The notes below the pieces were generated by a model. The model searched no databases, was not told where the DNA came from, and was given only the letters and a program-made list of their open reading frames with translations. DNA of 57,463 nucleotides from Prorocentrum cordatum (lineage: Eukaryota), in assembly GCA_963575745.1 (NCBI GenBank), contig CAUYUJ010000022.1:62001-119463 (forward strand), written 5' to 3'. Position numbers and translations under genes: made by a program. How positions within the stretch are numbered: the first letter of the stretch is position 1; every line of letters starts with the position of its first letter. Shown piece by piece: positions 2,956 to 5,610 of the stretch.

Positions 2956-5610
2956 ATGCGCGCCGTCGCCCTCAGCGCTGCCTGCCTCGGTGCCGGGTCG
3001 GCGCTCCTTCCTGGACCCGGCAGCAACCCCTACTGCTGGGCCGACGTCGACAGGGGACGCGGGGACGAGGTCGTGCGGATCGACGGCTTCCTCGCCCTGG
3101 AGCGGCAGGCGCGATGCTGCGGCTCCGCCCCAGGCTCGGCCACCGACCCGCCCGGCTGCTTCCCGCCGCCCGCCGCAGACTATCCGACGATCCTCAGGGC
3201 GTGTGCTGGCCGACTGTGTGTCACCCCGCTCGGCCTGTGCCGGCCATCGTCGCGCCACCTGCGTGGTGTCGAGGGGCCTCGATGGACCAGCACACGTTGG
3301 CGCCGACACGCGTCCTGGTGATCGTCGAACTATCTGGGCCGCGCGGAGTGCTGCGAGAGCCAGCGGCCCTGGGCAGACGCCCAGGCCGAGGCCGCGGCGC
3401 CGCCGCCCGACGTGCGGGGCGCCGAGCGCGCGTACCTGGCGTGGCCGGGGCGCGCCGTCGACCGCGAGGTGAGGCACTTCCGCCTCGTGGCGGGCGAGGC
3501 GGGGATGGTGCGGCCGCCGTAGCCCTGGCGACGAACTAGCAACGCACACACCCATGCCCATAGGGATGCCGGTGGGTGCGCGTTGTCGGACGGGGGTCCC
3601 CGCTCGAACGGGAGCCTCCCCCGCGGTGCGACAACCCGCACCCATACCTACAGCCAGTCCTCATCCGTCCGCCCCTCCTATGGGTATGGGTGTGTGGGTG
3701 TCTGTCGTTCGTTCGCCATCTGGGGACAAGAGCAGCGGCGCCAACCCAAGTTCTCGGAGCTCCGCGCGGATTTCTTGCATCGGCTCTGGGCCCCCCTGGT
3801 GGGACCGCCCCTGGCGCGCTCCGCGCGCCAGGGAGGGGCCACGCGGAGTTCTTGCATCGGCGCTGGGCGTCAGCGGCGCCTAGCCGCCGACCCGAGAACT
3901 CCGCGCGGAGCTCTGAGAGTGAGTTGATGACCTACAGTGTCGTTTTTAATGCATGTTCCGCGTGCGGATCATGTATTCAAACTGCAGGGATCTAGTATTA
4001 AAAACAACGATGGGTTCATGCATACACTTATTCATAACTCAATCATGTATAAACATCTTATATATATATATTAAAAGAATCCCATGTATTAGAAACTGCC
4101 CTGTACGCTGCTCCTTCTCACCCCCCAGCGTCACGACAAGCCCTTCGCGGTGGTGCTGCCGCCGTGGCAGGGCCTCGGGTGGAGCGCGCGCTTCTGGCGG
4201 GACCACTACGCCCGTGACTACGAGCCCGGGTCCTTTGCGGTCTTCCGGCGCGCCGTCGGCCCGCGCACCGTGGTGCTCGACGTCGGTGCGTGGATCGGCC
4301 CGACGGCGCTCTTCCTCGCCGGGCGCGCCCGGCACGTCGTCGCGCTGGAGCCGAGCAGCAGCGCCTTCGCCGAGCTGGCGTACAACTTCGCGCTCAGCCC
4401 GGCCCGGCTCGCGCGGGCGTTGCGGGCAGGGCTCGCGTCCCCCTCTCCACGGGGTCTTGGAGTTCCCGGCCCCTGCTTCTCCCGGAGGGCAGCGGCGCAG
4501 TGGGCATCGGCGATCGGTGTGGATGAGCATGTGGCCCCTGGAGGCCTTGGGACGTTGCCCGTGTCCACTGCGCCTCGGCCTTTGCGCCGCCCATTCCCTA
4601 GTAGATGTAAATCCTGCCCACGGTGCAGTGGATCTGGATGTAAGTCCTGCCCGCGGGCATCCCTCGTGGGCGCCGCCCTGGGGAGCGTGAACGGCCGCGT
4701 GCTGTTCAGCGACATGGGCGCGAGCGACGACCGGCCCCTCGCTCGGCACGGCAACCTGGGGCTGGTGGCTCGCGCCTCCGAGGTGCCGCAGATCTCCGTC
4801 GCGTCCCTCTGGGGACGGCGCAGCTGCCCCCACCCCCAGCCAGGGCCCCCTTGATCACCAGGTCGGGACGGGGGGTTCTGGCTCGGGGTGGGGGTGGGTT
4901 GTGCTGTCCTCACCCTCATCTCGGAGGAGAAGAACAGCATAGAGGTAGACTTTCGGAGTTCTGCGCGGATGTCTCGGATCCGCGCTTGACCCCCTTCTCC
5001 CTGGCGCGAGGAGCGCGCCAGGGGCAGCGCCTAGGGGCGGGAGGGCGCAGCTCCGATCCAAGAAATCCGCGCGGACCTCCGCAATTCAATGTTCGTGCAG
5101 TTGTTTCTCCTTCGATCGTCGCCGCGTGGCCGATTCTGAGGGACCTCGGCTTCGCCAAGGTCGACGTGGAGGGCGGGGAGGTGGACGTCGTGCCGGCACT
5201 GCTGCCCCTCCTCCAGTCGGCCCGGGCCACCGTGCTGGTGTCCCTCCACCCGCGCTTCGTCGGCCACGCCGCCGTGGTGGGCGTCGTCCAGGCGCTGCTG
5301 GCGACCTTCCCCGAAGAAGGGCAGGCGGCAGGAGCACGGGCTCGTGGAGCTCCGCGCGGACTTCCTGGAGCCATGCCGGGGCTTCCTCCCCGGCGCGCGG
5401 AGGGCGCGCCAGGGGCACCCAGGGCGCCCAGCGTCGATCCACGAAATCCGAGCGCAGCTCCTACGGCTCGTGTTCATGGCGTCGCTTCTGCTTCCGCTTC
5501 CCCAACTGCACGGAGACGGACCTCAGGACGCCGCTGTCGCCGGAGAGCGTCTCCGACGGCGACGCCCTCGGCGGGCTCGACGTGGTCTGCTTCTGGGGGA
5601 CGCTGCGAGC
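2956..5610 (+). CDS. FkbM-family (Methyltransf_21) SAM-dependent methyltransferase with N-terminal signal and Cys-rich region; multi-exon (approx. 2956-3190, 3320-3486, 4129-4417, 4658-4809, 5118-5312, 5504-~5610); 3' end uncertain
   Basis: FkbM motifs occur in order across GC3-rich segments: YEPGSFAVFRRAVGPRTVVLDVGAWIGPTALF, HVVALEP, FAELAYNFAL, LVGAALG, FAKVDVEGGE, VLVSLH. The N-terminus MRAVALSAACLGAGSA is hydrophobic. Exon 2 needs a 1-nt frame correction, so a pseudogene or sequencing error is possible. Confidence 0.85.
3545..3696. mobile_element. MITE with ~20-bp TIR CACACACCCATGCCCATAGG; second, interrupted copy at ~38648-38980
   Basis: Inverted termini are visible. The core GGGGGTCCCCGCTCGAACGGG...CGACAACCCGCACCCAT is shared with ~38700-38760. 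Confidence 0.8.
3752..3918. mobile_element. Palindromic foldback element family (core CCTGGCGCGCTCCGCGCGCCAGG); relatives at 4954-5081, 5313-5496, ~38215-38375, 40793-41006, ~51604-51730
   Basis: Arms TCTCGGAGCTCCGCGCGGA / TCCGCGCGGAGCTCTGAGA are near-reverse complements. The same central hairpin recurs at each locus. Confidence 0.85.
3935..4103. mobile_element. Tc1/mariner-type MITE (169 bp, TA target duplication)
   Basis: TA|CAGTGTCGTTTTTAATGCATG ... CATGTATTAGAAACTGCCCTG|TA with an AT-rich interior; second copy at 14979-15140. Confidence 0.8.

What the first reader, a model, noticed from the sequence alone, without database searches (positions are those of the whole stretch)
5306..5503. 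Frame-restoring 191-bp intron that is a foldback element with an exact 7-bp direct repeat and no AG acceptor
Seen: the FkbM frame (..LLATFP) stops at CTTCCCC 5306-5312 and resumes in another frame (FPNCTETDL..) at CTTCCCC 5497-5503. The intervening sequence is an almost end-to-end imperfect palindrome. No register within the direct repeat gives an AG end (options run from CT..CG to GA..CC), and 191 is not a multiple of 3. Established: core dinoflagellate introns are typically G(T/C/A)-AG, while IR/DR-bounded non-canonical introns are known in Amoebophrya and euglenids. Inference: this is either a structure-defined non-canonical intron (or precise DNA-level excision) in a lineage where that is not expected, or a TE-disrupted gene.
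Basis: partly seen in the sequence, partly recalled or inferred. Interest (0 to 1): 0.85.

Follow-up and report, generated by a model that had tools for sequence, protein, structure and literature searches.

The report
Hairpin transposon spliced out without AG
A 191-base hairpin-forming mobile-element copy sits inside a methyltransferase gene of a GC-rich marine alga-like eukaryote and is cut out of the transcript exactly at its 7-base flanking repeat although it has none of the usual intron end signals, as do most other introns seen in this window.

Summary
CTTCCCC stands at 5306-5312 and 5497-5503. The 191 nt between the repeat starts fold end to end (-112 kcal/mol, z -3.7). None of the 8 registers ends in AG.

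Assembled contigs of three runs from three studies join 5305 directly to 5497 with no mismatches in two of them. A fourth, poly(A) RNA run breaks at the same exon ends. So the element is removed and the FkbM frame restored.

It is not an oddity of one site. The gene's other four skipped intervals (3179-3328, 3522-4130, 4420-4659, 4810-5118) also lack G[TCA]..AG in every register. Most are hairpins with short direct repeats.

The element belongs to a family: 6 copies in the window, 2 in metagenome contigs. A sister copy (40786-41006, repeat TGGAGGA) interrupts a sialyltransferase-like gene, and an 89%-identical homologue reads straight across it. That copy does offer a GA..AG|G register.

Best reading: a transposon-derived "introner" removed from RNA by hairpin-assisted non-canonical splicing. 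This kind is described in Amoebophrya and resembles euglenid and Fritillaria introns.

The organism could not be identified, and DNA-level excision could not be tested. I file it as a new member of a known kind.

The parts
5306..5312 (+). Left copy of the 7-bp direct repeat CTTCCCC (end of exon 5 in the rightmost register).
5497..5503 (+). Right copy of the 7-bp direct repeat CTTCCCC. Only one copy is kept in the transcript contigs.
5313..5496 (+). Body of the foldback element (family copy 'e2'). The removed interval is 5306-5496 in the leftmost register and 5313-5503 in the rightmost, 191 nt either way. The ends read GAAGAAG.. and ..CTTCTGCTTCCG.
   Evidence: Hairpin: (z -3.68). Absent from contigs X1 rec2, X2 rec15 and X9 rec20. 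Family membership.
5119..5305 (+). Exon upstream of the finding (FkbM region ..KVDVEGGE..LLAT).
   Evidence: The piece 5119-5305 appears in contigs of all 4 laid runs (table 8). Alignment to PF05050 homologues.
5497..5610 (+). Exon downstream of the finding. The contigs end at 5564-5610, and the true 3' end is not determined.
   Evidence: table 8.
4919..5118 (+). Sister copy 'e1' of the same family. It is removed from the transcript as the 3' part of the 4810-5118 gap. I read it as its own intron (I4b) with direct repeat TC and no G[TCA]..AG register.
   Evidence: Hairpin: (-109.9 kcal/mol, z -5.2).. The split into I4a and I4b is an inference from one unassigned contig letter.
4810..4917 (+). 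108-nt hairpin intron I4a (inferred), direct repeat CCCTC. It is separated from I4b by the single base 4918.
   Evidence: 4809 and 5119 are joined with one letter between them in X1, X2 and X9.. Weak miRNA-precursor-like Rfam hit at 4820-4903, 30.2 bits against a gathering score of 92.
4420..4659 (+). Intron I3, 240 nt, TT..CA or TG..AT. It has terminal inverted repeats and an imperfect 9-nt direct repeat CGCGGGC[G/A]T.
3522..4130 (+). Intron I2, 609 nt, GC..CG, with no direct repeat and no end-to-end hairpin. It holds family copy 'e0' (core match 3754-3836) and an AT-rich stretch, and may be composite.
3179..3328 (+). Intron I1, 150 nt, direct repeat ACTATC (6), terminal inverted repeat CGACGATC/GATCGTCG. 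None of its 7 registers is G[TCA]..AG.
   Evidence: (X1 rec1).
40786..41006 (+). Family copy 'e3' in the sialyltransferase-like (GT29) gene, 221 nt, direct repeat TGGAGGA (7). Its removal restores the frame. One register reads GA..AG followed by G.
   Evidence: Homologue P0004 (89% identical) runs uninterrupted across the site.
38218..38399 (+). Family copy 'e4' (core match 38290-38377), flanked by the 10-nt direct repeat ACGCGGGCCG. It lies inside the larger inferred intron G0 (37991-38429, direct repeat ACGGCCAC).
51574..51728 (.). Family copy 'e5' (core match). No gene context was recognised.

Best explanation
The 191-nt interval is a real intron made by a non-autonomous foldback transposon (a MITE-like 'introner'). 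The element inserted into the coding sequence of an FkbM-type methyltransferase gene and left a 7-bp duplication.

In the pre-mRNA the element's two arms pair over almost its whole length. This brings the two CTTCCCC copies side by side. The RNA is cut and rejoined somewhere within the repeat, so one copy stays and the reading frame is restored.

The cut sites are set by the structure and the repeat, not by GT/GC/GA..AG. The same holds for most other introns seen in this window.

Shown: the sequence anatomy, the family, the absence of the interval from transcript contigs, and the restored homology. Inferred: that removal happens on RNA, that the hairpin is what defines the ends, and the enzyme.

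My guess for the enzyme, at about 0.45 against 0.3, is a spliceosome with relaxed splice-site needs (as proposed for Amoebophrya and shown for Fritillaria) rather than a spliceosome-independent pathway of the euglenid kind.
For: (1) Junction., table 8: X1 rec2 (817 nt, 0 other letters) lies on 3446-3521, 4131-4419, 4660-4809, 5119-5305 and 5497-5610. X2 rec15 lies on 4660-4809, 5119-5305 and 5497-5564 (0 other letters). X9 rec20 lies on 4131-4419, 4660-4809, 5119-5305 and 5497-5607 (11 other letters in all). These are 3 runs from 3 studies. X11, a poly(A) RNA run, has a 245-nt contig whose match stops at exactly 5119 and 5305.

(2) The runs behave as RNA. Bins 1900-2524 have depth 0 in all 4 runs. 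The unique intron bin 4525-4649 has depth 0 in X1, X2 and X9 (table 2).

(3) The unspliced form is also present at lower depth: X1 rec3 covers 5346-5518 (depth 2.85 against 10.4 for the spliced contig) and X9 rec21 covers 4916-5121.

(4) PF05050 homologues align through the junction of the computed product.

(5) Family. Six copies lie in the window. Two of 33 metagenome loci are real relatives with GAAGAAG...CTTCTTC ends. Depth over the family core reaches 859-3873 in the four runs (table 2).

(6) Generality. 8 of 10 introns examined have no G[TCA]..AG register: all 6 in the FkbM gene (counting 4810-5118 as the two inferred introns I4a and I4b) and 2 of the 4 inferred from homologues in the GT29 gene. 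6 of the 10 have direct repeats of 5 or more, against 2% expected.

(7) RNA-level pairing. In the arms of the 5 hairpin introns of this gene, mismatches that still pair as G.U on the sense strand outnumber A.C ones 40 to 11. For this element the count is 7 to 2.

(8) No known ribozyme or RNA family matches.
Against: All laid data are assembled contigs, not reads. Three of the four runs have no library record ('RNA?' or '?').

The gene's own joints are not among the 15 rows shown in the joint table (24 more rows were not shown). That table is filled with joints between family copies. The evidence therefore rests on the piece table.

X11 does not bridge the junction by the tool's 31-letter rule.

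No DNA run of the same strain was available. An empty allele, somatic excision or an intron-less retrocopy is therefore not excluded directly.

The sense strand is not generally the better folder. MFE favours sense in 5 of the 10 intervals folded and antisense in the other 5, this element among them (-115.7 against -118.9). The G.U excess could also come from a strand-biased mutation process.

Direct-repeat lengths in the family vary (2, 7, 7, 10, and about 5 in L028). This is not what a single transposase would leave.

Intron I2 has neither a repeat nor an end-to-end hairpin, so the hairpin rule does not cover every intron.
Confidence: 0.72

Rival explanations
1. Spliceosome-independent, structure-guided excision. 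The hairpin is recognised by a separate machinery, as is suspected for euglenid nonconventional introns, which leave as full-length circles. GT/AG is irrelevant by design.
For: No register has AG. Two hairpins appear to be removed separately with a single base between them, which is awkward for exon definition. G.U-tolerant arm decay on the sense strand. One of the element's 8 registers has a 3-nt 5' spacer and a 6-nt 3' spacer around the closing helix, the spacing of the Euglena code. I3 fits that code strictly (code read in passages of PMC12501133).
Against: The CD'G/CH'G motif is absent from this element. The first exon base after the intron is a pyrimidine in most of the fitting registers. 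7 of 10 introns have a register with the right spacing, but by my own estimate from the per-register chance of 0.11 about 4 would by chance. The 3' ends are pyrimidine-rich, which euglenid nonconventional introns are said to lack. The sister copy e3 and intron G2 have proper GA..AG|G registers, so an ordinary dinoflagellate-style spliceosome is at work in the same genes.
Confidence: 0.3
2. Removal at DNA level, or insertion polymorphism. The transcripts would come from a genomic copy that lacks the element: an empty allele, somatic precise excision by a transposase, or ciliate-like elimination bounded by pointer repeats.
For: The repeat-bounded, frame-blind, signal-free anatomy is what precise transposon excision or eliminated sequences look like (M. 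rubrum preprint, section 11). No DNA run was available to look for the empty site.
Against: All five gaps of the gene are missing together, with 0 mismatches in the exons. Three runs of three studies, one of them a diverged strain (X9, with its own SNPs), show the same junctions. That strain also carries the e1 element at this locus (rec21, about 97% identical, while family copies are 65-82% alike). The assembly itself holds all the elements. The window's 59% GC (mean of the 28 bins) is unlike the 31-32% of the ciliate read about.
Confidence: 0.07
3. The junction contigs come from an uninterrupted paralogue or processed retrocopy, and the copy in the window is a transposon-riddled pseudogene.
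For: The contigs cannot tell which locus was transcribed. Retrocopies are said to be common in dinoflagellates (abstract of PMC12014239, seen in the listing).
Against: Exons are identical over 817 nt in X1. A retrocopy would itself prove that these junctions are spliced. An old paralogue would not be identical. Low-depth unspliced contigs of this very locus sit in the same runs.
Confidence: 0.05

Closest known systems
Introner elements / non-canonical introns of Amoebophrya sp. A25 and A120 (Farhat et al. 2021, PMC7789003; passages and section 11 read)
   Same: RNA-supported introns without GT-AG and with no preferred end dinucleotides. Inverted repeats pair the two intron ends into a hairpin. 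Short direct repeats overlap the exon/intron borders. The intron families are repeated, MITE-like and carry no transposase. Mean size in A120 is about 240 nt.
   Different: The repeat here is 7 nt (3-5 nt there). The pairing runs nearly end to end rather than 8-20 nt. The family ends read GAAGAAG.., not the TTA.. (A25) or TAT.. (A120) motifs. The window is gene-poor and repeat-rich, unlike what I would expect of a roughly 100-Mb parasite genome. The organism is not identified.
Dinoflagellate Introners of Symbiodiniaceae and Polarella (Roy et al., preprint 10.1101/2020.10.14.339549; passages read)
   Same: DNA-transposon-derived introns with inverted repeats and target-site duplications of 4-8 nt, one copy of which stays in the mRNA. 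The sister copy e3 fits: GA donor, AG acceptor and a following G all come from its duplication.
   Different: Those elements make introns only where GH..AG is supplied by the duplication or the element. The copy in the finding has no such register and is removed all the same.
Identically repeated intron boundary (IRIB) of dinoflagellates (Mendez et al. 2015, PMC5032977; passages read)
   Same: 2-9 (to 11) identical bases at both borders, present once in the mRNA, which makes the splice position ambiguous.
   Different: The IRIB always contains GG and usually AGG. CTTCCCC, ACTATC, CCCTC and ACGGCCAC do not.
Nonconventional introns of euglenids (PMC12501133 and review PMC11282704; passages read)
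   Same: Variable non-canonical borders, end-pairing secondary structure, frequent short direct repeats at the borders, and a suspected MITE origin.
   Different: The code CD'G...CH'G at +4..+6 and 5-6 nt before the 3' end, with a purine starting the next exon, is not met by this element. It is met strictly by 1 of 10 introns. Here the 3' end is pyrimidine-rich.
Non-canonical introns of Fritillaria borealis (Henriet et al. 2019; known to me only through passages of the review PMC11282704 and the M. rubrum preprint)
   Same: MITE-derived introns with diverse non-GT-AG ends, removed efficiently. This shows that a spliceosome can evolve such tolerance.
   Different: AG-AC and AG-AT ends dominate there. 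It is an animal, and no long foldback is described in what I read.

Membership tests
Amoebophrya-type introner element (non-canonical intron with IR and DR) | Intron supported by RNA data whose ends are not GT-AG | tested here: met
   Contigs of 3 runs join 5305 to 5497. The 8 registers run CT..CG to GA..CC.
Amoebophrya-type introner element (non-canonical intron with IR and DR) | Inverted repeat of 8-20 nt pairing the 5' and 3' ends of the intron | tested here: met
   End-to-end hairpin, -112.1 kcal/mol, z -3.68. It is much longer than 20 nt.
Amoebophrya-type introner element (non-canonical intron with IR and DR) | Direct repeat of 3-5 nt overlapping the exon/intron borders | tested here: met
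   A direct repeat is present at both borders but is 7 nt long. Other introns here have 1-8 nt.
Amoebophrya-type introner element (non-canonical intron with IR and DR) | Repeated family within the genome | tested here: met
   6 copies in 57 kb. Very high contig depth over the core. The whole genome is not held.
Amoebophrya-type introner element (non-canonical intron with IR and DR) | Strain-typical IR motif (TTA.. in A25, TAT.. in A120), or the host genome being Amoebophrya | tested here: not met
   The family ends read GAAGAAG...CTTCTTC. The organism could not be identified.
Dinoflagellate Introner (Roy et al.) | GH donor and AG acceptor supplied by the target-site duplication or the element end | tested here: not met
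   There is no AG in any register for this copy. It is met by sister copy e3, which has a GA..AG register.
Dinoflagellate Introner (Roy et al.) | Terminal inverted repeats plus a target-site duplication of fixed length per family | tested here: inconclusive
   Inverted repeats are present. The repeats are 7 and 7 nt in the two coding copies, but 2, 10 and about 5 nt in others.
Dinoflagellate IRIB intron | Identical 2-11 bp at both borders containing GG/AGG | tested here: not met
   The repeat is present but is CTTCCCC, without G.
Euglenid nonconventional intron | CD'G at +4..+6 pairing with CH'G 5-6 nt before the 3' end, and a purine as the first base of the next exon | tested here: not met
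   for this element only the spacing fits, in 1 of 8 registers (GAA/TTC), and the next exon starts with C. A strict fit is found only for I3.
Euglenid nonconventional intron | Excised as a full-length circular RNA, after the conventional introns | not testable with these tools
   This needs raw reads or RNase R data.
MITE (non-autonomous foldback DNA transposon) | Short, no coding capacity, terminal inverted repeats, flanking duplication, many copies | tested here: met
   184-nt body.. No transposase was looked for, as no genome is held.
Ciliate-type internal eliminated sequence (DNA excision) | Absent from the somatic DNA of the same cell line | not testable with these tools
   None of the 24 listed runs holds half of the stretch's words or more, so no usable DNA run was at hand.
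FkbM family methyltransferase (PF05050), the host gene | Match to the family profile | tested here: inconclusive
   Pfam finds nothing on the unspliced ORFs. The 3 homologues found carry PF05050 and share the motif region VLDVGAWIGPT and K.D.EG.E. The spliced product was not sent to Pfam.

The most novel reading that the evidence does not exclude
A free-living, large-genome alga (my guess is a GC-rich core dinoflagellate) has an RNA excision system that reads hairpin geometry rather than splice-site letters. Any insertion of this foldback family into an exon would then be silent whatever the target sequence. Two copies in one window form a natural experiment: e3 has a GA..AG register and e2 has none, yet both are removed. 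If this is widespread, gene models built on G[TCA]-AG in such genomes are systematically broken.
Probability: 0.3. Interest if true: 0.85.

Novelty: new member of a known kind. Interest (0 to 1): 0.58.

Why it matters
This is a clean, transcript-backed case of a transposon copy being removed precisely with no canonical end signals. It sits next to a sister copy that does have such signals. That pairing makes the open question of how hairpin/repeat-bounded introns are recognised directly testable, for example through lariat versus circle products, hairpin mutants and repeat mutants.

It also has a practical side. All skipped intervals of this gene, and half of those inferred in the neighbouring gene, would be missed by pipelines that allow only GT/GC/GA-AG. 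The dinoflagellate genome paper I read says its tools were customised for just those sites. If the organism is outside Amoebophrya, the known range of this intron type grows.

Tried and rejected
- **Whole genome.** It is not held, so there is no copy-number census and no search for a second gene copy or a transposase.
- **Earlier scan notes.** Nothing relevant.
- **Rfam.** No match at gathering scores over the whole window. At E<=1 on 3100-5650 there is only a far sub-threshold miRNA-precursor-like hit on the 4820-4903 hairpin.
- **tRNAs and spliced leader.** No tRNAs. The recalled 15-nt end of the dinoflagellate spliced leader gives 0 matches with up to 3 mismatches, against 1.47 expected by chance. 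This is uninformative.
- **Organism identity.**
  - Pfam on 24 + 134 ORFs gave only RVT_1 (E 3e-4), Glyco_transf_29 (E 2.6e-4) and DUF6397 (E 1e-4), all below their curated cut-offs.
  - The two Atlas searches gave no useful taxa.
  - The protein searches return no organism names.
  - A ciliate origin was considered and dropped on base composition (31-32% GC there; 59% here).
- **Window-wide scan for 'repeat of 6 or more plus 12-bp terminal stem'.** It gave 639 hits against 12-22 in 5 Markov controls. The excess is almost all microsatellite arrays. The scan finds I1 but misses the element of the finding, so I draw nothing from it.
- **Sense versus antisense folding energy.** The result is split 5 to 5.
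- **Euglena spacing rule.** 7 of 10 introns have a fitting register, against about 4 expected by my own estimate from the per-register chance. I do not count this as significant.
- **Metagenome scan with the 21-nt core palindrome.** 31 of 33 loci share only the core and are chance matches in unrelated DNA.
- **Canonical alternative for G1.** A GT at 38592 with an AG at 40070-40071 (my reading) would keep the frame but add seven residues inside a motif that every homologue printed that covers this region has without a gap. I rejected it as less likely, but it was not tested with RNA.
- **Decomposing I2.** An attempt to split it into adjacent repeat-bounded hairpins gave nothing convincing.
- One search was corrected.
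Full report
**What is there**

The window reads CTTCCCC at 5306-5312 and again at 5497-5503. The neighbouring letters differ on both sides, so the repeat is exactly 7 bp and the junction can slide over 8 equivalent registers. The upstream frame (..LLATFP) and the downstream frame (FPNCTETDL..) differ, and 191 nt is not a multiple of three.

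The stretch folds as one long imperfect hairpin of -112.1 kcal/mol. None of 200 dinucleotide shuffles folds as well (z -3.68). The eight registers give CT..CG, TT..GC, TC..CT, CC..TT, CC..TC, CC..CC, CG..CC and GA..CC, so none ends in AG. A repeat of 7 or more occurs at 1.0% of random junction pairs in this window.

**The host gene**

Pfam did not recognise the unspliced ORFs. A protein search with 4093-4851 found three proteins, all carrying PF05050 (FkbM methyltransferase), at 45-48% identity. When the exons given by the RNA contigs are joined in a script, the product aligns with these three through every junction, including the one in the finding.

**Is the interval removed?**

The run search listed 24 runs. 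None holds half of the stretch's words or more, which is what transcripts of an intron-rich gene would give. I laid contigs of four runs from four studies on 1900-5645.

- One 817-nt contig of X1 lies, without a single mismatch, on 3446-3521, 4131-4419, 4660-4809, 5119-5305 and 5497-5610.
- A 428-nt contig of X2 and a 738-nt contig of X9 show the same 5305|5497 join, with 68 and 111 nt beyond it.
- X11, the one run on record as poly(A) RNA, has a contig whose match stops at exactly 5119 and 5305. It does not bridge by the tool's 31-letter rule.

The runs behave as RNA. The intergenic bins 1900-2524 are empty in all four, and the unique intron bin 4525-4649 is empty in three. Unspliced pieces of this locus are there too, at lower depth: X1 covers 5346-5518 at 2.85 against 10.4, and X9 covers 4916-5121.

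There are caveats. These are contigs, not reads, and three of the runs have no library record. The joint table showed only joints between repeat copies, with 24 more rows not shown. The evidence is therefore the piece table.

**It is not a lone oddity**

The same contigs define four more skipped intervals in this gene.

- **I1** (3179-3328): 6-nt repeat ACTATC and terminal inverted repeat CGACGATC/GATCGTCG.
- **I2** (3522-4130): GC..CG, with no repeat and no end-to-end hairpin.
- **I3** (4420-4659): TT..CA or TG..AT, with terminal inverted repeats and an imperfect 9-nt repeat.
- **4810-5118**: see below.

None has G[TCA]..AG in any register.

In all three bridging contigs, one contig letter between 4809 and 5119 is left unassigned. 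It therefore matches neither T at 4810 nor G at 5118. The simplest reading is two adjacent hairpin introns. The first is 4810-4917 (repeat CCCTC) and the second is 4919-5118 (repeat TC, a copy of the same family as the finding). The single base A at 4918 is kept between them. This is an inference, because the letter itself was not shown to me.

**A family of foldback elements**

A sensitive BLAST of the element against the window finds copies at about 3754-3836, 4921-5118, 5313-5503, 38290-38377, 40819-40967 and 51574-51728. Aligned, they share a conserved palindromic core and arms but have looser ends.

Contig depth over the core reaches 859 to 3873 in the four runs, so the family is abundant in transcripts. 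A scan of metagenome contigs with the 21-nt core gave 33 loci. Two of these (L014, L028) are real relatives, and L028 ends in GAAGAAG...CTTCTTC. The other 31 share only the core.

**The sister copy in the neighbouring gene**

The copy at 40786-41006 sits in a sialyltransferase-like gene and is flanked by the 7-nt repeat TGGAGGA. A homologue 89% identical over the flanking exon (P0004) and four others read straight across the site. The 221 nt must therefore be removed at the repeat.

Mapping the homologues gives three more introns. G0 (37991-38429, repeat ACGGCCAC) and G1 (38596-40090, repeat TC) have no canonical register. G2 (40335-40420, repeat CAGGA) and the family copy G3 do have one, namely GA..AG followed by G.

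So 8 of 10 introns lack a G[TCA]..AG register. Six of the 10 have repeats of 5 or more, where 2% is expected. The GA..AG|G pattern and the repeated borders are what I read described for dinoflagellates.

**How it most likely works**

The element is a non-autonomous foldback transposon whose insertion duplicated 7 bp. In the transcript the arms pair and bring the two repeat copies together, and the RNA is cut and rejoined within them.

Some evidence points to RNA-level pairing. Aligning the two arms of the five hairpin introns of this gene, transition mismatches that still pair as G.U on the sense strand outnumber A.C mismatches 40 to 11. In this element the count is 7 to 2. In G3 it is 5 to 6.

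Against this, minimum free energies favour the sense strand in only 5 of the 10 intervals folded, and not in this element. A strand-biased mutation process could also give the G.U excess.

Which enzyme does it is not shown. A tolerant spliceosome is my first guess, for three reasons. The 3' ends are pyrimidine-rich, canonical-register introns are spliced in the same genes, and Fritillaria is a precedent (as described in the review passages). A spliceosome-independent route of the euglenid kind is the main rival. The Euglena code fits I3 strictly. For this element only the spacing fits, in one register, and the overall count of 7 of 10 introns is not clearly above the roughly 4 that I estimate from the per-register chance.

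**Rivals at DNA level**

An empty allele, somatic excision, or an intron-less paralogue could not be tested, because no usable DNA run was listed and no genome is held. They are unlikely for three reasons.

- All the gaps vanish together from exons that are otherwise identical.
- A diverged strain (X9) shows the same joins and also carries the e1 element at this locus.
- A retrocopy would itself be proof of splicing.

**Comparison with what is known**

The closest match is the introner elements of Amoebophrya A25 and A120. These are RNA-supported introns without GT-AG, with end-pairing inverted repeats of 8-20 nt, direct repeats of 3-5 nt over the borders, and thousands of repeated families. 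The present element meets those features in kind. It differs in having a longer repeat, pairing along its whole length and different end motifs, and the window does not look like a compact parasite genome.

Introners of Symbiodiniaceae and Polarella take GH and AG from the duplication. The sister copy e3 fits that, but the element of the finding does not. The repeated intron boundaries of core dinoflagellates always hold GG/AGG, and here they do not.

My searches of the held library turned up no report of AG-less, hairpin-bounded introns in a core dinoflagellate, haptophyte or cryptophyte. That library misses most subscription journals. The P. cordatum paper, for one, says its tools were customised for GC and GA donors only.

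**Organism**

The organism is unknown. The window averages 59% GC. It is rich in microsatellites and tandem arrays and poor in recognisable genes. I take it to be a large-genome marine protist, most likely a dinoflagellate, but this is a guess. If it proves to be Amoebophrya, the finding is already known.

**Verdict**

The phenomenon is of a known kind and is seen here in a new family, possibly in a new lineage. It comes with a built-in comparison between a signal-bearing copy and a signal-less copy.

Noticed in passing
window 4805-5120: Two hairpin introns appear to abut with a single retained base (4918) between them. All three bridging contigs leave one letter unassigned between 4809 and 5119. 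That would be a 1-nt 'exon', or stepwise removal of nested hairpins.
   Followed up: partly
window 37840-41200: A sialyltransferase-like (GT29) gene on the + strand, with a signal-peptide-like start near 37840 and a C-terminal part after 41007. It is interrupted by four inferred introns, of which two have no canonical register and two read GA..AG|G. The closest homologue found is 89% identical over one exon.
   Followed up: partly
window 5879-6106: Just downstream of the gene, a 113-bp unit occurs twice in tandem (93% alike). It is built of short inverted CCGAGTTA/TAACTCGG-type blocks, so it is another foldback-type repeat, unrelated in sequence to the family studied.
   Followed up: no
window 3179-5496 (five hairpin introns): Arm mismatches are biased to G.U over A.C on the sense strand (40 to 11). 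The two older-looking hairpins fold much better as sense RNA than as antisense: 4420-4659 at -131 against -113, and 4810-4917 at -91 against -72.
   Followed up: partly
window 18537-20415: A 1.8-kb (AGT)n array (about 297 copies of a 6-nt unit) runs directly into the 100-N gap at 20316-20415, so the assembly probably broke in this array.
   Followed up: no
window 55883-57034: A 102-bp unit is repeated 11.4 times in tandem at 94% identity.
   Followed up: no
window 14408-14475, 52026-52099, 53624-53708: Three short arrays of an 11-nt unit (TCGCCGATGCA / CGCCGACGCAT) recur across the window.
   Followed up: no
window 28441-29190: An ORF with a weak reverse-transcriptase match (RVT_1, E 3e-4, below Pfam's cut-off). 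Long unannotated ORFs lie at 21224-23998 and 30153-31103 nearby. This is probably a decayed retroelement.
   Followed up: no
L028 150-375 and L014 240-400: Two environmental contigs carry relatives of the foldback family (76% over 191 nt, and 83% over 95 nt with a shortened left arm). The family, or its host, is therefore present in sampled environments.
   Followed up: partly
window 5648-5754 and many other sites: Long (CTC)n/(GAG)n/(CGT)n triplet arrays occur throughout (for example 7111-7391, 25968-26299, 37357-37723, 52726-53343). One starts right after the last exon piece seen in the contigs, which may be why the contigs end near 5610.
   Followed up: no
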